NCBI RefSeq assembly: GCF_058153355.1
Contig: NZ_CM177019.1
Strand: one strand, 5' to 3'
Length of the DNA stretch: 64,000 nt
Shown here: piece by piece, positions 13,391-56,236 of the stretch
Layout: every line of letters starts with the position of its first letter
How positions within the stretch are numbered: position 1 is the stretch's first letter
Notes under the pieces: generated by a model
What the model was told of the DNA's origin: nothing
Database searches by the model: none
What the model saw: the letters and a program-made list of their open reading frames with translations, nothing else
Made by a program: the position numbers and the translations under genes

Positions 13391-13466
13391 GTCCCCTTCG
13401 TCTAGAGGCCCAGGACACCGCCCTTTCACGGCGGTAACAGGGGTTCGAATCCCCTAGGGGACGCCA
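13391..13466 (+). tRNA. gltW: tRNA-Glu (UUC) in 16S-23S spacer
   Basis: GTCCCCTTCGTCTAGAGGCCCAGGACACCGCCCTTTCACGGCGG...GACGCCA, 76 nt. Confidence 0.97.
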
Positions 13467-48834: not shown

Positions 48835-51762
48835 TTAATCCTTACGGTAGTGGTACGCCTCAAAACCGCCAGCGTTCAGTGGGATATCGGGCGCCCATTC
48901 GGGGTTAGTGGAGAGAAGCGCGGAAAGCGCTTTATCGTTGAAATCTTCTGTGTCAGGTGCTTCGGTGATCACCTCGTCGTGTACCGTCAGCACAATGCTG
49001 TAACCGGCATCTTCGATAAGCGGCATGTTTCCGGCCAGAACGTCGCGGGCGGCCGCCTGGGTGACGTTCTCTACCAGCTTTCCGCCGTAGGTTTTGAGTC
49101 GTTGCCATTTACGCGAATAAGAGTTAACACCCATGTAGGTGATATTCCCTTTTTCGATAACCGGAGACGGGTAGCATACAGCGCGTCCGGATGGTAGCTG
49201 TATGCGCAGCCACGCGCCATCGCGGCGGATTTTAAGATAACCGCAATACAATGTTTTTTGCGGTGTGGCGATTGCAGTGCGGATGGTGCGCTCCAGTTCG
49301 TACCAGAAATCGCAGGTCGCCGGGTGCGCCCTGCGCCAGAGACGTTTAAGTGAGTCGCAGGCGATAAATACCCGTTCAGAAAGGCCGTAGGTTGACTTAC
49401 GTTTAACCGATTCGTAGTACCAGCTTTTCGCCTCGCGGATAACATCGCGGGGAATGTTTGGCAGTGCGGCGTTCGCCAGCTCGTCGAGATCGAGACTGTA
49501 AACCAGTGCAAAAGTGATGAAGGCCGACACACCACCACCGTACCCGCAGTTGTGAACGATTAAATGTCCTGAGTCGGTTTTAATCGTGAATCTGTTTCGA
49601 GGCCCCGCATGTGCAATGTCGTAAACATCGCTCCAGCTCGTCGATACGTTTTTGCAGGTCTGCGATTTTTCTTCTGTTGCGGTTATTGTCTGCTTTGGAG
49701 ACGAACTGGATATTACCCGGTTCGTAGCCTTTGTTATTGTCGATGCGATCCATTTCCAACTTTGGGTCATTAAACCCTTTGATTTCCCTGACGTGTAGCA
49801 AAAAAGCTCTTTTATCTTCCTGCCATAGCTGACAAACGTAGATCCCCCGACCGCCGTAGTTGTGAAACAACCTGTTGGTGGGTTTATGGCAACGGCTGAT
49901 TGCGGCAGACAATCGGTTAAGTAGCCTGCGACGGGTTTCGTCATCTGCAATAGCATCCGCATAGCATAAGAATTTTTTACGATACTCGTTATGCTTTTTC
50001 TTTGCGCAAATGTTACATCGGGTACTTTTTCCTTTAAGGAGATTGCTGATTGTTGCGGTGTGAGGCATTGCACCACATTTGCATTTGACAAGTATCCTTC
50101 GGTCTTTTCCGGGTACTTTTTCCAGTTCTTTGATAACGGTAAGTTCTCCGAAGCAAGTTCCAGGCTTTGGTGAAGCGTATTTTTGTTTAAAGCGATAAGG
50201 TTTGCCAGCTTCCATCCAGTAGGGGTTAGCACCTGGTGATCCGGGGTCATTTTTGCTCCGTCCAGTGATATTAAGGCTTTGTACCCCCTGTAAATCAGTC
50301 CTTCGTGTTTTACCCATTCTTCTCCGTCCCATAACAAATCCGCGCCCGAAATACTAACAAGCGGCTTATAGCCTTTATCGGTGAGCACTAAAGTATCCGG
50401 AGCTATGCAAGCCAATTCCAGCACTTTACCTATCTGGCGCTGGTCTTTGGTGACGCGCTCAACTTCAATTCCGTAAGCTTTTGCATACGCCAGTTTATAT
50501 AAGTCCGGACCCGTTCCGGCGTCGTACTCTCTGAATGCATTCAGTTTCCATTCTTCTCCCGCCAGCCATGCCAGCATACGGCCTTCAATGTTCGACAAGT
50601 CACTTACCACCAGTTTTTTACCTGTTGGCGCGATAATGCAGCCACGTAACGCTGAACTGGTTAGTTCCATGATATTGTCAAACAGCAGGTCTGCACATCC
50701 GGCTTTCAGTGCTTCGATGCCTTCGTCTATTTGTTCCTGTTTTAGTGAAGGGCGGGGAAGATTCTGGGGCTGGAATAGCCGTCCGGCCCAGCGCCCGGTA
50801 CGTGACGCCCCGCAGAACTGTAGCGTACCGCGTAAGCGCCCGTCGTGGCTTACGCCTTTCATCAGTGCCTTGTATTTACTGGTGCTGGTAGTACTGGCTT
50901 GCTGGCGGATAGCCAGCAGTTCTTTCACGGCAGATGGTAAATCGGGGTCGGCTATACGACGTTCCAGGGTACTGCGTTGCATGTCTGGTAGCTCCACACC
51001 GTAGGATTCAACGATGTGCTTAATCAACGCGTCCCGTTGTGTGGCTGCCTGCACTTCGCCATCAGTCATTTCCTGTGTACGCTTTGCCAGGCGTTTTTGC
51101 TCCTGGTCTACCGCTTCGATCGCAGCGCGCGCGAGTTGAATGTCCATGCAGACGCCCCGGTCGTTGATCTGCTGATCACGATGCCAGAGCGCCAGTTCTG
51201 TCCCCTGATAATTCCACTTCGGCAGACGTTTATAGACTTCGCGCATTGCCTCGATATCCAGCCCGGCGTAAGCAACAAAGCGCCGCCATTCTTCCGGGTG
51301 GGTTTTACTGGTGGCCCGACGCAGTTTGCTGTTTTTCGGGCGTGGCTTACAGAACAGCTGGATCAGCGCTTTACCTTCTTTGTCCTTCGCTTTGTCTTGC
51401 GGGACGCCGAGTATTTCGCAGAGTTCCCCCAGAGACCCCGGGAGGCCGTGCGCCAGCGCCTGCACCATTGTGTCGCGCCAACGTTCGACTGGCGGTGCCA
51501 GTCGCGGCATTGCATAACGCAGGACGGTGCGGTCGAAGTGAGAGTTATGAAAATAAAGCAGGGTCTCAGGGGCTGCGATTGCTTCGTATAAGCCGTGTGG
51601 AATACCACCACCGGCAGTGATATCCCACACGTTTACGGGCCCGTCGTTGATAGCCCATGCGAACAGCATCACTTCAACGCCTTCGGCATACGCATGGGTA
51701 CCGTTCGTAATAGGGATTTCGCAATAGGTTTCCAGGTCGCCCCATAGAATGTTTTCAGACAA
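48835..51762 (-). CDS. Family-A DNA polymerase with 3'-5' exonuclease domain, interrupted by an in-frame intein
   Basis: 975-aa ORF; motif B reads [10 protein letters not shown][intein][10 protein letters not shown]; motif C VHDEV; N-terminal exonuclease domain. Confidence 0.85.
49549..50409 (-). other. Intein (287 codons) within polymerase motif B
   Basis: Starts [10 protein letters not shown], block [10 protein letters not shown], ends HLIVHN followed by Cys; central ~185 residues lack any endonuclease motif in frame. Confidence 0.75.
49580..50332 (-). CDS. HNH/His-Me finger-like endonuclease ORF in alternative frame inside the intein
   Basis: 250-codon ORF offset from polymerase frame; CKCG...CNIC zinc-finger pair and [27 protein letters not shown] resembling HNH motif. 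Confidence 0.45.
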
Positions 51763-51828
51763 GACAGGGTCCTCCGTGGACTAAACGGTGACAAAAAGCC
51801 CCTGGCTGAGCAGGGGCGGATTGAATGA

Positions 51829-52620
51829 TTAACGAGGTAAAGTGGGTGGAATATATCTGCCGATGCGGTCTTCTATGGTCGGCAGAGCACACATGCTGTC
51901 GCTGAAGCAATCATGCAACTGGTAAACCAGTTTCGAATCCATTTTTTCGAGGGCAGGCATTAACTGCGAGCGCCAGATTTCATTGATGCGCCGGAAGTTA
52001 TGACAGATGGCGCGGAGATTGTTGATGAACATTTCCTTCTCTGCGTCATTGATTGCTGTCTGCACTTTCTGAATACGCTTTGTGCTGCCGTTCCGGTAAA
52101 AGTCCTTCTGCGCAGCGACAGCCTCATCCACGGTCGGATAGCACCCTAAGTAAACGCTTTTCTCTCCGTCCCATGCATAAGCCCTGTACGGATTGTATTT
52201 GCTCCGGTGATGATAAACCATTTTCGGCAGACACTCCCTGTGCGGCGCCAGTATCGTGGAAGACTGCGGAACAGCGGTTTCTTTCTCGATAAGGTCAAGC
52301 ACCCAGCGACGAAATTCTTTTGCTACAGGAGTACTGGCAAGCATGGCGACTAGATGCGCGCCACGAAGGGAGAAAATGCGCGCTTTTGTACGAAGATTGC
52401 TGTAACCTTTTGATATTCCCGAGCACCTCAAATTGAGGTTCTCGGCGATTACAACCATCTCTGAAGAAAACTCGTCAGCGTTGCGGTTATAAATCTGGGT
52501 TATTTTATCTCCGCGTGAATATTCCAGCGCAGTAGCTAAAGTCGCAGCTGTGAACCACAACTTACCATTGTGTTCGACTGTTTCGAGAACGTGGGATTTG
52601 AAAGTGAGTTGAGAGCTCAT
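51829..52620 (-). CDS. Bro-N domain protein with C-terminal AP2-like domain
   Basis: ORF trimmed to MSSQLTFKSHVLE start; KLWFTAATLATALEY is Bro-N; YAWDGEKSVYLGCYPTVDEAVAAQKDF is AP2-like. Confidence 0.65.
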   Translation of the reverse strand: MSSQLTFKSHVLETVEHNGKLWFTAATLATALEYSRGDKITQIYNRNADEFSSEMVVIAENLNLRCSGISKGYSNLRTKARIFSLRGAHLVAMLASTPVAKEFRRWVLDLIEKETAVPQSSTILAPHRECLPKMVYHHRSKYNPYRAYAWDGEKSVYLGCYPTVDEAVAAQKDFYRNGSTKRIQKVQTAINDAEKEMFINNLRAICHNFRRINEIWRSQLMPALEKMDSKLVYQLHDCFSDSMCALPTIEDRIGRYIPPTLPR

Positions 52621-52946
52621 AGTTTTATGTCCTGGTAGATATTTTGAATTTACCCTTTTTGAGAGGGTGGCCGGGCGCTCAAAACCGCTACCAGTCGGCG
52701 GGCGTATTTCCCTTCGGAAGGGTATTGTATTAGCCGCACGCCCGACCATTGAATTCTCAATATCGTGGACATAAAAAATCCGCATGACTGACGGGCGCGG
52801 TTTCCGCTGGTAATAAAGGTGTTTTGAGCACCATGAAGCGGAATATACCCATTGGTTATCGCGGATGTCAATGTATGCTTTTGCAAAAGGTTGTCATCCC
52901 CTTTGCAAAAACACCCGGCGTGCAACCGGGCGTCTGTGAAGGCGGG

Positions 52947-53495
52947 TTAAATCAGTGCTTCAGCATCAGCACCTTCGCTGATATCGTCGAAATCGTCAGC
53001 GCTTGCCACTCCGCCGCCAGCGAATGCATCGCCGTCTCGCAGGAACTGGACTCCGCCGAGTGAGGCATTAATGCGTTTACCGAAATTATTGTCCTGTGCC
53101 CAGATATCGATAACGGCGTTTACATAGCACCCTGCATAGGGACGTCCGTCAGCCTGAATAAGTGGCGAACGATCGCGATCAAGAACAGCTGGGCGCGCTT
53201 TGTTAGCAGCATTCAGGAAGAAATTACCGGGGAAGCCTTCATACTCTGCTTTTTCATCACCATCATGCAGGCACAGATTGAGTTTTTTCTCCAGCTGGTT
53301 ATAAATGGGCTCCCACTTCTCTCCCCATTTTTCCTTCGCTACCTGCTTCATAGCTTTACGGATTTCTTCCAGTTGTGGGTGTTTGGGTGACATTAAAAAT
53401 ACTGCGGAGAAACGTGGATCGCCTTCGCCGTTTACAGTTTTAGCTTCAAACAGAGCAGGAAAAGCTAATCTCACGTTATTTAATTTAATCTTCAT
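52947..53495 (-). CDS. DUF2815-like putative ssDNA-binding protein
   Basis: 182-aa ORF MKIKLNNVRLAFPALFEAK... with acidic C-terminal tail, adjacent to DUF2800 and polymerase. Confidence 0.6.
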   Translation of the reverse strand: MKIKLNNVRLAFPALFEAKTVNGEGDPRFSAVFLMSPKHPQLEEIRKAMKQVAKEKWGEKWEPIYNQLEKKLNLCLHDGDEKAEYEGFPGNFFLNAANKARPAVLDRDRSPLIQADGRPYAGCYVNAVIDIWAQDNNFGKRINASLGGVQFLRDGDAFAGGGVASADDFDDISEGADAEALI

Positions 53496-54007
53496 TTCAA
53501 AACTCCTATAAATTCTATGGATTCTTTTTCCGCTGCTTTACGCGCAATTACAGCTTCCGCTACGGAATTAAATAGACCTAAATGTTTTTCTTTGCCGTGC
53601 AGCTTTATATAAGCTCTCCACTTATTACGGTGACGGCAAACCCCAACGGCACCGCTTTTATTATCAGAGCGTAAGGATTGGTTAATGTTATTTTCGGTAG
53701 AGGTTACAAGTCGTAGATTAGAAAGGGTGTAATTGCTCCGATTTTTGTCTATGTGATCTACCTCTAATCCCGAGGGGATACTACCGTTATGCATAACCCA
53801 GACGATGCGATGTAACAACATTTTCCGACCGTTTACACTTACGTGATAATACCCGTCCGGCCTTATATGTCCCGCTTGCTTATCTGCATATTTAGCATTC
53901 CAGGACAAATAGTCTCGCCGGGTTTTAAAATGGGTGAGCGGACGATATTTCCATATTAAAACGCCATTGTGATACCGGAAGCATTCATTTAAATATTCTT
54001 GATCCAA
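53492..54007 (-). CDS. HNH-AP2 free-standing homing endonuclease
   Basis: 171-aa ORF with LEVDHIDKNRSNYTLSNLRLVTSTEN HNH motif followed by AP2-type domain. Confidence 0.8.
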   Translation of the reverse strand: MDQEYLNECFRYHNGVLIWKYRPLTHFKTRRDYLSWNAKYADKQAGHIRPDGYYHVSVNGRKMLLHRIVWVMHNGSIPSGLEVDHIDKNRSNYTLSNLRLVTSTENNINQSLRSDNKSGAVGVCRHRNKWRAYIKLHGKEKHLGLFNSVAEAVIARKAAEKESIEFIGVLK

Positions 54008-54021
54008 ATAACCTCCTTAAA

Positions 54022-55331
54022 TCAGATGAGGTCTGCGGTTAGCGTATCGTCGGATACGTCGTCGAAATCATTTATAGGGTTGATATTGAGTGCGGGGCGT
54101 GGGTCTGACTCGGGAACGACGGTGGGTTTACCATCAGCTCGTGTTATCAGTGCCTCGACTTTTGACCAACGGCGCGGACTGGCCTTTTTGATAAGTTTTT
54201 CGGCTTTTGTGGGGCTAATAAGTTTAAAGTCGAATACTTCTTCAGTTTTGTACCTGAACTGGTCCTTCAGAAGTGCGCGAGCTGCCTCTTCATCACTCCA
54301 GGCCCGGTTACCTTGTTTTCCTGTTACCAGTTTAAACCCCGGTACCGGATGTCCGGCATTGAGTTCATTGTGAACCCGGTCCCGTACTGCCTTTAGCCAG
54401 GATTCAATAAAGTCGGCCTGACTATAGATCTCCGCAAGCTGCTCAATGGTTAACAGAGGTACACGTGCGCTGGCATTGGTGATTATTTCGCTGACAGGCT
54501 TTGTCAGATCTTCAAAGTCGCTGGCCGCTGTTTGTAAATGCTGCATTTTCTGGGCAGTGCAAATAGCTTTTGCTTTACAGAAGCGGCACTGTTTTTCTCC
54601 AGGTATGAAGTTTTCCAGCGGTAGTGTCTCAATGCCTTCGCATTCAGCAATATTGAGAACAAGGATCGCACTGGTTGCGGCCTCCTGTGCCCGTTCACCG
54701 AAAGACTGAAGTTCCTGTACGGTTAACGACCATTCTGAAACGTGGTTGAGCCTTGGCTGGTGAATAAATAATCTTACAGTCTCAAAGTCATACAGCATGC
54801 TGAATTGTTCGAGCGCACCCAGAGCATACAGTTGTAGTTGCTCATTTTGTTCTGCATCAATGCGGACGCCTTTGCCATATTTCAGGTCGTGGATTTGTAA
54901 TTCGTTACCAGCGATGATTATGCCGTCGGCAGTTCCGAAAGATTCTTCCACCCCCGTTATATGTGAGAAATCAACACGTTGTTCAACCAATAGTTCATTA
55001 TTCTGTGCAAGAGTCCAGACCGTATCAACATACCGGCCAACGGCTTCGACCATTTCATCATCCACCTGTGGGCCAGATGTATCATCAGGATTTTCGCGAA
55101 GGGGGTATGAGCCGAGAAACATAGAAACATAGAAACATTGCATCCGGCGTAGTGTTCCGGGTGGCTTTGCCTGTTTCGTAGAACTTTTTCAGCAAGCGCG
55201 TGCGCTGCAGTGCCCTCGATTGCAAAAGTTGTTTCTTTATCCGGTTGTGTGGCCTCCAGCGCCAGACTTCCTGGGCAGCGCATCCATCGATGCGCTGATG
55301 ATGGAGAAAGTTGTGCGTGAACGTCTGGCAT
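54022..55331 (-). pseudogene. DUF2800-like PD-(D/E)XK nuclease (Cas4-like), frameshifted
   Basis: N-terminal part (from 55331) [15 protein letters not shown] and body (to 54022) with DLKYGKG and C-terminal Cys cluster lie in different frames, switching at the 8-mer repeat. Confidence 0.7.
55115..55138. repeat. Tandem repeat (AGAAACAT)x3
   Basis: Three perfect head-to-tail 8-bp copies at the frame switch in the DUF2800-like gene. Confidence 0.9.
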
Positions 55332-55333
55332 GA

Positions 55334-56236
55334 TTAACCCTCCAGTGCTTTTTCAGCCAGGGTGATTACTTCAGCGAGATTTTCATCCGTTACTTCACCA
55401 AGTTTCCTGGCTCCCTGTTTTTCCAGAATTGCAATAGCTTCTGCCCGGTAGCCCCCTTTTGCTAACTGGAGGATCAACCCTTCAGCTTGTTTGCGTAGTG
55501 CCGCGAAATCAATTGTATGGTCATCTTTGGCGTCATTATTCTGGCTGGAATTTGCTGCGTCTCTGCGTGCAAATTCTTCCTGCAGCTGAAGGTACTCAAC
55601 ACGGTTGATCTCGATATGGCCTTTTTTAAGCATCTCGTTCAACTTGCGTAAGGTGTGGAGTTCACTGGCTGCTGTGCCGGATACATTTTTGACGTAAAAC
55701 GGCCCCGTGCGTTCTCCATCTTTGTTACTGGCCTTTTTCGGCTTAACTTCATCACGCCCATCTGCAGGTGCATCAAGTAGCTGCTCGGCAAAAGCACGTC
55801 GCTCGCCGATGGTTGGCAGGTCGTCCCAGAACTTAAGGATGTTACGGGACAGGTCCAGGAGAGCAGGTTTAAGCAGCGCCCTGGCTCGTTTGACGCCCTG
55901 CAATGCGCTGTCGAGAGCATCAATCTGAACTACTCGTTTATCGCCTTCAGCATCACGGTAGGCAACAGCACGTTGCAGCATGTCTTCTGTGATAGGGGTG
56001 GCTACCGGGTAGAAACCAGCCAGTGCGATAACATCGCTGAACTCCAGATCATCCAGTGTCATTGCCGCTGACATGTTTTCAGCTTCAGTTGCTGTATCCC
56101 GACATTCCTGCACTCGTGAAATCGTGTCAGGATGCATAACAATACCTGATGCCATTGTGCGGATAAGACGTTCAAGCAGCGCATTATGTTGTGCCAGAAG
56201 TTGATTATTAAGTTCTAGACTGGTTTCTAAACTCAT
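55334..56236 (-). CDS. Hypothetical phage early protein
   Basis: 300-aa ORF, helical and acidic, no recognised motif; start overlaps upstream small ORF stop. Confidence 0.5.

What the first reader, a model, noticed from the sequence alone, without database searches (positions are those of the whole stretch)
51829..54007. Cluster of homing-endonuclease-type genes around the polymerase module
Besides the intein-associated HNH-like ORF, a free-standing HNH-AP2 endonuclease gene (53492..54007) lies between the DUF2815-like and DUF2800-like genes, and a Bro-N protein with an AP2-like domain (51829..52620) lies directly upstream of the polymerase. Three selfish-element-type genes within 5 kb suggests a hotspot of intronless homing.
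Basis: inference. Interest (0 to 1): 0.45.

Follow-up and report, generated by a model that had tools for sequence, protein, structure and literature searches.

The report
Homing endonuclease genes in a prophage
The replication genes of this E. coli prophage carry two real selfish nuclease elements, a free-standing HNH-AP2 gene and a polymerase intein with a hidden HNH gene. The third suspect, the Bro-N gene, is an antirepressor-type regulator and not a nuclease, so the finding is a tidy but ordinary "endonuclease island".

Summary
ORF 53492-54007 is a genuine HNH-AP2 endonuclease. Its closest solved relative is I-HmuI, and its C-terminal domain is AP2. It sits precisely in the short spacer between the DUF2800 and DUF2815 genes and is absent from that spacer in 152 of 155 related E. 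coli prophages. It is 91% identical to copies in the same slot of Salmonella-type phages whose flanking genes are only 71-84% identical. It travels with a 40-nt, almost purely synonymous recoded tract at the start of DUF2815. These are the marks of intronless homing.

The polymerase intein (49549-50409) is likewise present in only 3 of 158 relatives. Its HNH gene is read in the +2 frame, an arrangement shared with Jerseyvirus polymerases.

The Bro-N gene (51829-52620) has no nuclease domain. It is a self-contained cassette with a promoter, a C4/sRNA-Xcc1-type leader RNA and a terminator, and it resembles the phage P1 c4-ant immunity module. It occupies a variable cargo slot.

Relatives carry other HNH genes at four further positions, so the "hotspot" idea holds across the phage group. 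That pattern is already described as "HEG islands". Verdict: partly supported, a new member of a known kind, of modest interest.

The parts
53492..54007 (-). Free-standing HNH-AP2 homing endonuclease gene (171 aa). It has a TTG start preceded by AAGGAGG, and its stop overlaps the DUF2815 start (ATGA).
   Evidence: Pfam HNH_3 3.4e-19. PHROG phrog_99 8.3e-60. Family profile against PDB: I-HmuI 3.5e-12, AP2 domains 3e-5. AlphaFold mean pLDDT 88.5, top Foldseek hit I-HmuI. Absent from this slot in 152 of 155 E. coli relatives. dN/dS 0.11. GC 40.9%.
53455..53495 (-). Recoded 'AT-type' tract covering codons 1-14 of DUF2815, immediately downstream of the HNH gene. It is the proposed co-conversion or immunity tract and lies at or near the proposed target site.
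   Evidence: 16 differences within nt 6-40 of the gene against the common allele (14 of them synonymous), compared with scattered SNPs over the other 509 nt. The tract is present in every HNH+ locus, including Salmonella-type backbones, with 1-3 differences. It is 97.8% identical between window and L007, where the rest of DUF2815 is 83.9%.
54008..54021 (-). Spacer between the DUF2800 stop and the HNH start. The left insertion boundary lies at about 54013/54014, after TTTAAGGA.
   Evidence: Alignment with empty-site alleles L003 and L004.
52947..53495 (-). DUF2815 / Enc34-type ssDNA-binding protein gene. This backbone gene is the probable host target of the HNH.
   Evidence: Pfam PF10991 2.7e-44. 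Conserved in all 106 loci examined.
54022..55331 (-). DUF2800 (PD-(D/E)XK) gene, a backbone gene. In this window it is frameshifted by an extra copy of the 8-bp unit ATGTTTCT within 55115-55138.
   Evidence: Pfam DUF2800 is split over two ORFs. The 8-bp insertion shows against L001 and L003. The triple repeat is found in none of 106 related loci.
51829..52620 (-). Bro-N protein gene (263 aa): an N-terminal Bro-N domain, a central AP2-like unit and a helical C-terminus. It is antirepressor-type and not a nuclease.
   Evidence: Pfam Bro-N 1.2e-9. PHROG anti-repressor Ant 1.5e-29. hhalign to the AP2 part of the HNH family, probability 80%. Family members swap the N-terminal domain between Bro-N and AntA. 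The structure shows no nuclease fold.
52661..52747 (-). Structured leader RNA of the Bro-N cassette (Rfam sRNA-Xcc1, C4-like). Its hairpin loop CUGGUAG is complementary to CUACCAG next to the Bro-N ribosome-binding site.
   Evidence: Rfam RF02221, 68.2 bits, full length. Relatives have a C4 antisense RNA (RF01695) at the same position. A compensatory loop/target change is seen in L001.
52842..52871 (-). Sigma-70-type promoter of the Bro-N cassette (TTGACA-18-TATATT).
   Evidence: 11 of 12 match. A consensus match only.
51798..51817 (-). Intrinsic terminator after the Bro-N gene, just upstream of the polymerase ribosome-binding site.
   Evidence: 7-bp GC-rich stem followed by a T run.
48835..51762 (-). 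Family A DNA polymerase precursor (975 aa) that contains the intein.
   Evidence: Pfam DNA_pol_A. The intein-less homologues are 687-688 aa.
49549..50409 (-). Intein (287 aa; Cys1, TPDH block B, ...VHN|C) inserted in polymerase motif B (KVLELA|CGYGGG).
   Evidence: Boundaries from comparison with the L003 polymerase. Present in 3 of 158 E. coli relatives. GC 45.4% against 54.7% in the exteins. No Pfam or PDB sequence hit for the splicing domain.
49580..50332 (-). HNH endonuclease ORF nested in the intein, in the +2 reading frame.
   Evidence: PHROG phrog_374 4.7e-37. Over the intein, frame 0 has 0 stops, the HNH frame has one 250-codon ORF and the third frame has 22 stops. The Jerseyvirus polymerase intein has the same arrangement: the HNH frame is 48% identical and the intein frame 29%.
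50410..50465 (-). Diverged N-extein tract next to the intein.
   Evidence: 56 nt are replaced relative to intein-less alleles, with amino-acid changes.

Best explanation
The region is a replication module of a temperate E. coli phage that two independent selfish nuclease elements have colonised. It also carries one unrelated accessory cassette.

(1) ORF 53492-54007 encodes an I-HmuI-like HNH nuclease fused to an AP2 DNA-binding domain. It is inserted in the roughly 15-nt spacer between the DUF2800 and DUF2815 genes. It borrows the upstream ribosome-binding site and is translationally coupled to DUF2815. I infer that the enzyme nicks or cuts HNH-less alleles at or near the first 40 bp of DUF2815 when an HNH+ and an HNH- phage or prophage meet in one cell. 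Repair from the HNH+ copy would then copy in the gene together with the adjacent recoded 40-nt tract, and that tract would make the carrier uncuttable.

(2) The PolA intein (49549-50409) spreads by intein homing. Its nuclease would be the HNH encoded in the +2 frame inside it.

(3) The Bro-N gene is not a homing element. It is a promoter, C4-like leader RNA, gene and terminator cassette of the P1 c4-ant (immI) type. It probably encodes an antirepressor or DNA-binding regulator whose translation is held down by the leader RNA pairing next to its ribosome-binding site. It sits in a cargo slot that holds different genes in different relatives.

What is shown: domain content, insertion boundaries, population frequencies, similarity across backbones and RNA complementarity. 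What is inferred: cleavage, the target site, the immunity role of the tract, translation of the +2-frame HNH and antirepressor activity.
For: HNH-AP2 identity. D84, H85, N97 and N106 are invariant or nearly so and correspond to the catalytic motif of I-HmuI.

Precise insertion and empty sites: 152 of 155 empty; 0 of 80 IMG/VR loci occupied.

Same slot on diverged backbones that lack the intein and Bro-N.

The HNH is younger than its flanks. It is 91.1% identical at nucleotide level against 71-84% for the flanking genes. Its dS is 0.36 against 1.16 for DUF2815, and its dN/dS is 0.11. Its GC is 40.9% against 48-49%.

The recoded tract accompanies the HNH on both backbones.

Intein.

Bro-N cassette. 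The loop and its target change together (CUGGUAG/CUACCAG in the window against CUAGUAG/CUACUAG in L001).

Other HNH genes at other positions in relatives.

Literature: HNH-AP2 homing endonuclease genes and 'HEG islands' near DNA polymerase genes (PMC10448857); endonucleases encoded out of frame in inteins (bioRxiv 10.1101/2025.01.02.630785; PMC11855218); the P1 C4 RNA and Ant (PMC8201110).
Against: No cleavage, homing or expression data exist for any of these genes.

Ten HNH-less loci (L005, L006, L041, L045-L049, L056, L065) also carry the AT-type tract. The tract is therefore not strictly tied to the gene. It may be the ancestral allele of the lineage in which the HNH first inserted, and not an immunity adaptation.

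Within E. coli, the HNH, the intein and this Bro-N allele always occur together. That fits clonal descent of one haplotype as well as it fits ongoing homing.

The closest solved relative, I-HmuI, is a nickase, so the mode of cutting is uncertain.

The intein splicing domain has no significant Pfam or PDB sequence hit.

The window's leader RNA pairs with its target over only 7 nt, and 98 of 2000 shuffles do as well. There is no icd-like ORF between the RNA and the Bro-N gene, unlike in P1.
Confidence: 0.75

Rival explanations
1. One reading: all three genes, including Bro-N, are homing-type selfish elements, and the module is a hotspot of intronless homing with three active elements.
For: The Bro-N slot varies between relatives. 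The Bro-N protein shares an AP2-like segment with HNH-AP2 endonucleases.
Against: No nuclease domain or fold was found in the Bro-N protein. The 1675 homologues found are named regulators or antirepressors, and those listed carry only the Pfam domains Bro-N or AntA. The cassette has its own promoter, leader RNA and terminator. Its GC equals that of its neighbours. The slot holds unrelated cargo such as Nmad5 or an opposite-strand ORF, or is empty (88 nt), which is how exchangeable accessory cassettes (morons) behave.
Confidence: 0.04
2. The HNH gene is an old resident that was lost many times. Its patchy distribution would then reflect repeated deletion and vertical descent, not gain by homing.
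For: Within E. coli it is always linked to the same haplotype. HNH-less loci carrying the AT-type tract could be precise-loss derivatives.
Against: HNH dS is 0.36, a third of the 1.16 of the adjoining DUF2815 gene in the same genome pair. HNH nucleotide identity is 91% against 71-84% for the flanks. HNH GC is 7-8 points lower than its neighbours. Empty sites in three tract classes show a clean 15-18-nt spacer with no remnant.
Confidence: 0.1
3. The HNH protein is a domesticated, useful phage function, for example excluding competing phages, processing replication intermediates or degrading host DNA. It would then be kept for the benefit of the phage and not as a selfish element.
For: It is under purifying selection (dN/dS 0.11). 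It is embedded in the replication operon with translational coupling. Homing endonucleases are known to mediate marker exclusion (SegG is cited in PMC10448857).
Against: It is dispensable, since 152 of 155 E. coli relatives and 80 of 80 IMG/VR relatives lack it. A fixed slot with a linked flanking tract is the homing signature. Exclusion of competitors is in any case a consequence of homing and not an alternative to it.
Confidence: 0.1

Closest known systems
Free-standing HNH-AP2 phage homing endonucleases (Pfam HNH_3 family; solved relative I-HmuI; the HNH-AP2 class of Magnani et al. 2004; 'IPA-HNH' genes of Barth et al. 2023, PMC10448857)
   Same: An N-terminal HNH nuclease with an intact D-H...N...N motif and a C-terminal AP2 domain. 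A free-standing gene in an intergenic spacer next to essential replication genes. Patchy distribution. A diverged flanking tract.
   Different: At most 47% amino-acid identity to any deposited phage copy. It lives in a temperate prophage and not in a lytic phage. No biochemistry has been done, and the target is only inferred. I-HmuI is encoded in an intron, has a different DNA-binding module and is a nickase.
T4 Seg/Mob-type intronless homing with co-conversion of flanking markers (SegG, SegB, SegE)
   Same: A free-standing endonuclease gene lies between conserved genes. The carrier genome differs from recipients by clustered substitutions next to the gene. Flanking sequence is inherited together with the gene.
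   Different: A different nuclease family (HNH, not GIY-YIG). The co-inherited tract seen here is very short (about 40 nt, on one side). Encounters would involve prophages and not lytic co-infection.
HEG islands around phage DNA polymerase genes (Barth et al. 2023, PMC10448857)
   Same: Several endonuclease genes of different lineages bracket or interrupt the same essential replication genes, and their content turns over between relatives. Here that means five free-standing HNH slots plus the intein.
   Different: It is seen here in a family of enterobacterial prophages with a DUF2800/DUF2815/PolA module. Only about 12% of sampled relatives carry any such gene.
Inteins whose endonuclease is encoded out of frame (Gosselin, Arsenault and Gogarten 2025, bioRxiv 10.1101/2025.01.02.630785; 'hidden HNH' ShiLan element, PMC11855218)
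   Same: The splicing domain and the exteins are in one frame. A complete endonuclease ORF lies in 'frame 3' inside the intein, and the intein frame is kept open across it.
   Different: The host is an enterobacterial prophage PolA, and Jerseyvirus PolA, not actinobacteriophages. The nuclease matches PHROG HNH families (phrog_374), and only weakly an endonuclease VII family.
Phage P1/P7 immI module (c4 antisense RNA, icd, ant)
   Same: A promoter is followed by an 87-nt structured RNA, whose loops are complementary to the ribosome-binding region of the downstream antirepressor-type gene. Relatives score as Rfam C4 at the same position.
   Different: The window copy scores as sRNA-Xcc1 and not as C4. 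There is no icd-like ORF. The protein has a Bro-N domain and an AP2-like domain and is not P1 Ant. No repressor partner is known.

Membership tests
HNH (His-Me finger) homing endonuclease, HNH_3 / I-HmuI-like | HNH nuclease domain with intact catalytic and metal-binding residues | tested here: met
   Pfam HNH_3 3.4e-19. H66, H85 and N106 are invariant, and D84 and N97 nearly so, in a 23-member alignment. Aligned to the I-HmuI DH...N...N motif.
HNH (His-Me finger) homing endonuclease, HNH_3 / I-HmuI-like | beta-beta-alpha-metal fold like that of solved homing endonucleases | tested here: met
   AlphaFold mean pLDDT 88.5. Top Foldseek PDB hit is I-HmuI 1u3e, probability 1.00, E=5e-3, 116 columns.
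HNH (His-Me finger) homing endonuclease, HNH_3 / I-HmuI-like | Separate sequence-specific DNA-binding module (here AP2) | tested here: met
   Family profile against the AP2 domains of TEM1 (3.4e-5) and WRI1 (6.4e-5). Nine of 23 members hit PF00847. Foldseek AP2 hits with probability 0.97-1.0. The window protein alone does not hit Pfam AP2.
HNH (His-Me finger) homing endonuclease, HNH_3 / I-HmuI-like | Presence/absence polymorphism at one fixed site in otherwise collinear genomes | tested here: met
   3 of 155; 0 of 80.
HNH (His-Me finger) homing endonuclease, HNH_3 / I-HmuI-like | Signs of lateral movement: the element is more similar than its flanks, and flanking sequence is co-inherited | tested here: met
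   91.1% against 71-84% nucleotide identity. dS 0.36 against 1.16. The AT-type tract accompanies the gene on two backbones.
HNH (His-Me finger) homing endonuclease, HNH_3 / I-HmuI-like | Site-specific cleavage of the element-free allele, and gene conversion in crosses | not testable with these tools
   Needs a purified enzyme and phage crosses.
Homing endonuclease (as claimed for the Bro-N gene) | Any nuclease domain (HNH, GIY-YIG, LAGLIDADG, PD-(D/E)XK, T5orf172) | tested here: not met
   Only the Bro-N domain in Pfam, even at E<=10. PHROG hits are antirepressor families plus a 40-residue AP2-like match. No NCBIfam hit. No nuclease fold.
P1 immI-type c4-RNA / antirepressor module | C4-family structured RNA upstream of the antirepressor gene on the same transcript | tested here: inconclusive
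   The window hit is Rfam sRNA-Xcc1 (68 bits) and not C4. Relatives L005 and L006 have C4 (76 bits) at the equivalent position.
P1 immI-type c4-RNA / antirepressor module | RNA loops complementary to the ribosome-binding region of the downstream gene | tested here: met
   L006: 11 nt over the Shine-Dalgarno sequence (2 of 2000 shuffles). L001 AntA: 9 nt. Window: 7 nt next to the Shine-Dalgarno sequence, with a compensatory change in L001. The window pairing alone is weak (98 of 2000 shuffles).
P1 immI-type c4-RNA / antirepressor module | icd-like ORF between the RNA and ant | tested here: not met
   Only 40 nt separate the RNA from the Bro-N start codon.
P1 immI-type c4-RNA / antirepressor module | The protein binds and inactivates the prophage repressor | not testable with these tools
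   Only annotation by homology (PHROG 'anti-repressor Ant').
Intein | In-frame insertion in a conserved host motif, with Cys1, block B TxxH, a terminal His-Asn and a +1 Cys | tested here: met
   CIAPD..., TPDH...LIVHN|C in PolA motif B. The intein-less allele reads ELG|LGYGGG.
Intein | Recognisable Hint splicing fold | tested here: inconclusive
   No Pfam hit. The best PDB sequence hit is the Neq intein fragment at E=0.93. No structure was predicted. Homologous Jerseyvirus genes are annotated as intein-containing precursors.
Intein | Endonuclease domain in frame with the splicing domain (the canonical architecture) | tested here: not met
   The HNH is in the +2 frame.

The most novel reading that the evidence does not exclude
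The polymerase intein's HNH endonuclease is a conserved overprinted gene. It is read in the +2 frame inside an intein whose own frame is kept open only as a linker. The arrangement is shared by E. coli prophage PolA and the PolA of Jerseyvirus phages, which have been sequenced many times. That would make easily grown enterobacterial phages a model for how 'hidden' intein endonucleases are translated and how free-standing endonuclease genes become intein domains. A smaller second point is that the AP2-like unit in the large Bro-N/AntA antirepressor family may have been co-opted from HNH-AP2 homing endonucleases living in the same module.
Probability: 0.5. Interest if true: 0.55.

Novelty: new member of a known kind. 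Interest (0 to 1): 0.3.

Why it matters
The region is a clean natural example of intronless homing in temperate enterobacterial phages. It has an exact insertion site, an empty-site majority and a 40-nt synonymous tract that moves with the gene between E. coli-type and Salmonella-type backbones. That gives a concrete, testable guess at the enzyme's target.

It also corrects two annotation habits. Bro-N/Ant genes should not be counted as selfish nucleases. The N-terminal extension of the Bro-N ORF in RefSeq (the 300-aa version) overlies a structured leader RNA.

The general phenomenon, endonuclease islands around phage polymerase genes, is already described. The gain is therefore incremental.

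Tried and rejected
- Pfam AP2 on the window proteins themselves gave no hit, even at E<=10. The AP2 assignment had to come from family-level evidence.
- NCBIfam gave nothing for any of nine proteins.
- A PDB sequence search of the intein (E=0.93) and of the nested HNH (no hit) was uninformative.
- The Foldseek search with the Bro-N model gave no hit at E<=0.001. It supports only 'no nuclease fold' and a weak AP2 resemblance.
- I considered that the DUF2800 split might be related to the HNH insertion. I rejected this because all other HNH+ loci have an intact 433-aa DUF2800, and the cause here is a private 8-bp repeat expansion.
- I considered that the HNH could be the terminase-associated HNH type. 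I rejected this because it lies in the replication operon and most relatives lack it.
- I considered that the two long overlapping frames in the intein could be a sequencing error. I rejected this because the sequence is 99.9-100% identical in three independent complete genomes, and the arrangement recurs at 48% amino-acid identity in Jerseyvirus.
- A first regular-expression attempt to classify the tract returned nothing and was redone.
Full report
**Observation.** Window 44.9-57.8 kb is a minus-strand replication operon of a temperate E. coli phage. Megablast finds the module in 204 of 5426 complete E. coli genomes and in three deposited E. coli phages. In the direction of transcription the genes are:
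- a 300-aa hypothetical gene (55334-56236);
- DUF2800, a PD-(D/E)XK protein (54022-55331);
- the HNH gene (53492-54007);
- the DUF2815/Enc34-type ssDNA-binding protein gene (52947-53495);
- the Bro-N gene (51829-52620);
- the family A DNA polymerase gene (48835-51762).

Two qualifications apply. The AP2 domains do not reach Pfam thresholds in the window proteins themselves. The Bro-N protein has no nuclease domain in any library.

**The HNH-AP2 gene: what it is.** The protein hits Pfam HNH_3 (3.4e-19) and PHROG phrog_99 over its whole length (8.3e-60). A profile of 23 homologues finds the homing endonuclease I-HmuI (3.5e-12) over the nuclease half. Over the C-terminal 50 residues it finds the plant AP2 domains of TEM1 and WRI1 (3.4e-5 and 6.4e-5). 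Nine of the 23 members hit Pfam AP2 on their own. The AlphaFold model is confident (mean pLDDT 88.5). Its best PDB matches are I-HmuI and then AP2 domains. The D-H...N...N residues are conserved.

**The HNH-AP2 gene: insertion site.** Alignment with relatives that lack the gene fixes the insertion exactly. Sequence is shared up to TTTAAGGA, just after the DUF2800 stop codon. Then comes the 516-bp gene, whose TTG start uses the AAGGAGG formed there. Its stop codon overlaps the DUF2815 start (ATGA).

**The HNH-AP2 gene: frequency.** In complete E. coli genomes the junction is empty in 152 of 155 cases. It is empty in all 80 of the closest IMG/VR loci.

**The HNH-AP2 gene: evidence that it moves.**
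- A 92%-identical protein sits in exactly the same slot in Salmonella-type prophages. Those prophages have an intein-less 688-aa polymerase and an Nmad5 gene in place of Bro-N. The three elements of the finding are therefore not one inherited block.
- Between the window and such a locus (L007), the HNH gene is 91.1% identical at nucleotide level. The neighbouring genes are much less similar: DUF2800 75.7%, the 300-aa gene 71%, the body of DUF2815 83.9% and the polymerase exteins 83.7%.
- Synonymous divergence is 0.36 for the HNH and 1.16 for the adjoining DUF2815. The HNH dN/dS is 0.11, so the protein is under purifying selection.
- HNH GC is 40.9%, against 47.7-49.3% for its neighbours.
- The first 40 nt of DUF2815, directly downstream of the HNH, differ at 16 positions from the common E. 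coli allele. Fourteen of these are synonymous. The other 509 nt show only scattered SNPs.
- This 'AT-type' tract is found in every HNH+ locus on both backbones, with 1-3 differences. HNH-less Salmonella-like backbones carry a third version with 10-12 differences.

A short, sharply bounded, synonymous tract that travels with a free-standing endonuclease gene is what co-conversion predicts. It also fits target-site immunity, as described for the T4 Seg enzymes (cited in PMC10448857). I therefore infer that the enzyme's site lies in or next to DUF2815 codons 1-14 of HNH-less alleles.

**The HNH-AP2 gene: caveats.** Ten HNH-less loci also carry the AT-type tract. The tract could therefore be the ancestral allele of the lineage first invaded, and not an immunity adaptation. 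Within E. coli the HNH is always linked to the same haplotype. Nothing has been tested biochemically.

**The intein.** The polymerase contains a 287-aa insertion (49549-50409). It has Cys1, a TPDH block B and a terminal ...VHN followed by Cys. It sits inside motif B: KVLELA|CGYGGG, where the intein-less allele reads KVMELGLGYGGG. It is present in 3 of 158 E. coli relatives. These are strains O121 201805972, VL7S7 and VL40, which also carry the closest Bro-N allele; the three genomes with the HNH gene include at least the first two. Its GC is 45.4% against 54.7% in the exteins. About 56 nt of diverged N-extein sequence flank it.

Its endonuclease is not in frame. ORF 49580-50332 lies in the +2 frame and matches PHROG HNH families (phrog_374, 4.7e-37). 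Across the whole 861 nt the intein frame has no stop codon, while the third frame has 22. The same arrangement occurs in the 'intein-containing DNA polymerase precursor' of Jerseyvirus phages. There the HNH frame is 48% identical to the window over 238 residues, and the intein frame only 29%.

Endonucleases encoded out of frame in inteins were reported recently for actinobacteriophages (bioRxiv 10.1101/2025.01.02.630785). A related 'hidden HNH' has also been described (PMC11855218). This is therefore a new member of a recently described kind. It spreads by intein homing, not by intronless homing. The splicing domain itself gave no significant Pfam or PDB sequence hit.

**The Bro-N gene: the protein.** It has a Bro-N domain (Pfam 1.2e-9; PHROG 'anti-repressor Ant' 1.5e-29). 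A central unit of three strands plus a helix aligns with the AP2 part of the HNH family (hhalign probability 80%, E=1.5e-5; PHROG phrog_99 positions 217-257). The same unit gives weak Foldseek matches to ERF1 and TEM1. The C-terminus is helical. The protein belongs to a family with 1675 detectable members. In that family the N-terminal domain is either Bro-N or AntA on a shared C-terminal part, and members are named regulators or antirepressors. No nuclease was found.

**The Bro-N gene: the cassette.** The gene is a separate transcription unit. A hairpin followed by a T run lies after DUF2815. This was seen by eye and was not called by the scan. Next comes a TTGACA-18-TATATT promoter (52871-52842), and a strong terminator (51817-51798) lies just before the polymerase ribosome-binding site.

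Between the promoter and the start codon lies a full-length Rfam sRNA-Xcc1 match (52661-52747, 68 bits). Relatives have a C4 antisense RNA, or C4 plus isrK, in front of their Bro-N or AntA genes.

The loops of these RNAs are complementary to the ribosome-binding region of the downstream gene:
- 11 nt over the Shine-Dalgarno sequence in L006 (2 of 2000 shuffles do as well);
- 9 nt in the L001 AntA leader;
- 7 nt next to the Shine-Dalgarno sequence in the window (98 of 2000 shuffles do as well).

The window pairing is supported by a compensatory change in L001: CUGGUAG/CUACCAG becomes CUAGUAG/CUACUAG. This is the logic of the phage P1 immI module, in which the C4 RNA limits expression of the antirepressor Ant (PMC8201110). 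Here there is no icd-like ORF.

**The Bro-N gene: the slot.** The space between DUF2815 and the polymerase gene ranges from 88 nt (empty) to about 1.9 kb. It holds Nmad5, an opposite-strand ORF, Bro-N or AntA cassettes, or combinations of these. It is a cargo slot, not a homing site.

**Is the module a hotspot?** Across relatives, yes. Other HNH genes were found at these positions:
- Between the 300-aa gene and DUF2800: NUMOD4-HNH genes of two lineages only 48% identical to each other, in 9 of 80 IMG/VR loci and in L006 and L017.
- Upstream of the 300-aa gene: a frameshifted HNH-AP2 gene in L006 and L056.
- Between Nmad5 and the polymerase gene: L069.
- Just after the polymerase gene: L008, L068 and L072.

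About 12% of the sampled loci carry at least one. This matches the published description of 'HEG islands' and of HNH-AP2 genes near DNA polymerase genes (PMC10448857). The concept is therefore not new.

**Verdict.** Two of the three genes are true homing-type elements, one free-standing and one nested in the intein. The third is an antirepressor-type cassette regulated by a C4-like RNA. The case is well documented by comparison but ordinary in kind. I rate interest at 0.3 and novelty as a new member of a known kind.

Noticed in passing
window 49549-50409 (intein) and 49580-50332 (nested ORF), minus strand: The polymerase intein carries its HNH endonuclease in the +2 reading frame, and the intein frame stays open across all 287 codons. 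Jerseyvirus polymerase inteins (locus L105) have the same overprinted arrangement. There the HNH frame is 48% identical to the window and the intein frame 29%. The two inteins sit 4 codons apart in polymerase motif B.
   Followed up: partly
window 52661-52747, minus strand: A full-length Rfam sRNA-Xcc1 match (68 bits) lies in the leader of the Bro-N gene. Relatives have C4 antisense RNA or isrK at the equivalent place. Loop-to-ribosome-binding-site complementarity covaries between loci. The 300-aa and 318-aa versions of the Bro-N ORF, including the RefSeq annotation in relatives, overlie this RNA and are probably over-extended.
   Followed up: yes
window 55115-55138, minus strand (within DUF2800, 54022-55331): The 8-bp unit ATGTTTCT is present three times here and twice elsewhere. 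The extra copy frameshifts the DUF2800 gene into two ORFs. None of 106 related loci has the triple repeat, so this is either a private inactivating mutation of this prophage or an assembly error.
   Followed up: yes
L006 6056-6574 and 7727-8020; L017 4674-5192; L008 9894-10373; L069 7236-7790; L056 2553-3132: Related prophages carry other HNH endonuclease genes at four further positions of the same replication module. At one slot there are two NUMOD4-HNH lineages only 48% identical to each other, and there is one frameshifted HNH-AP2 pseudogene.
   Followed up: partly
window 52906-52932 (minus strand); weak Rfam STnc310 match at 52880-52944 (plus strand): A hairpin followed by a T run lies right after the DUF2815 stop codon. 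It looks like a terminator, and it would insulate the Bro-N cassette inside the replication operon. The terminator scan did not call it.
   Followed up: no
L001 3140-3456 and L017 11766-12082: In relatives, the AntA antirepressor gene inserted downstream of the polymerase gene is preceded by three Rfam RNAs in a row (sRNA-Xcc1, isrK, C4). This suggests a more elaborate leader than the one in the window.
   Followed up: no
window 13391-13466: A lone tRNA-Glu (UUC) lies far upstream of the prophage module. It suggests that the first part of the window is bacterial chromosome, possibly an rRNA operon spacer.
   Followed up: no
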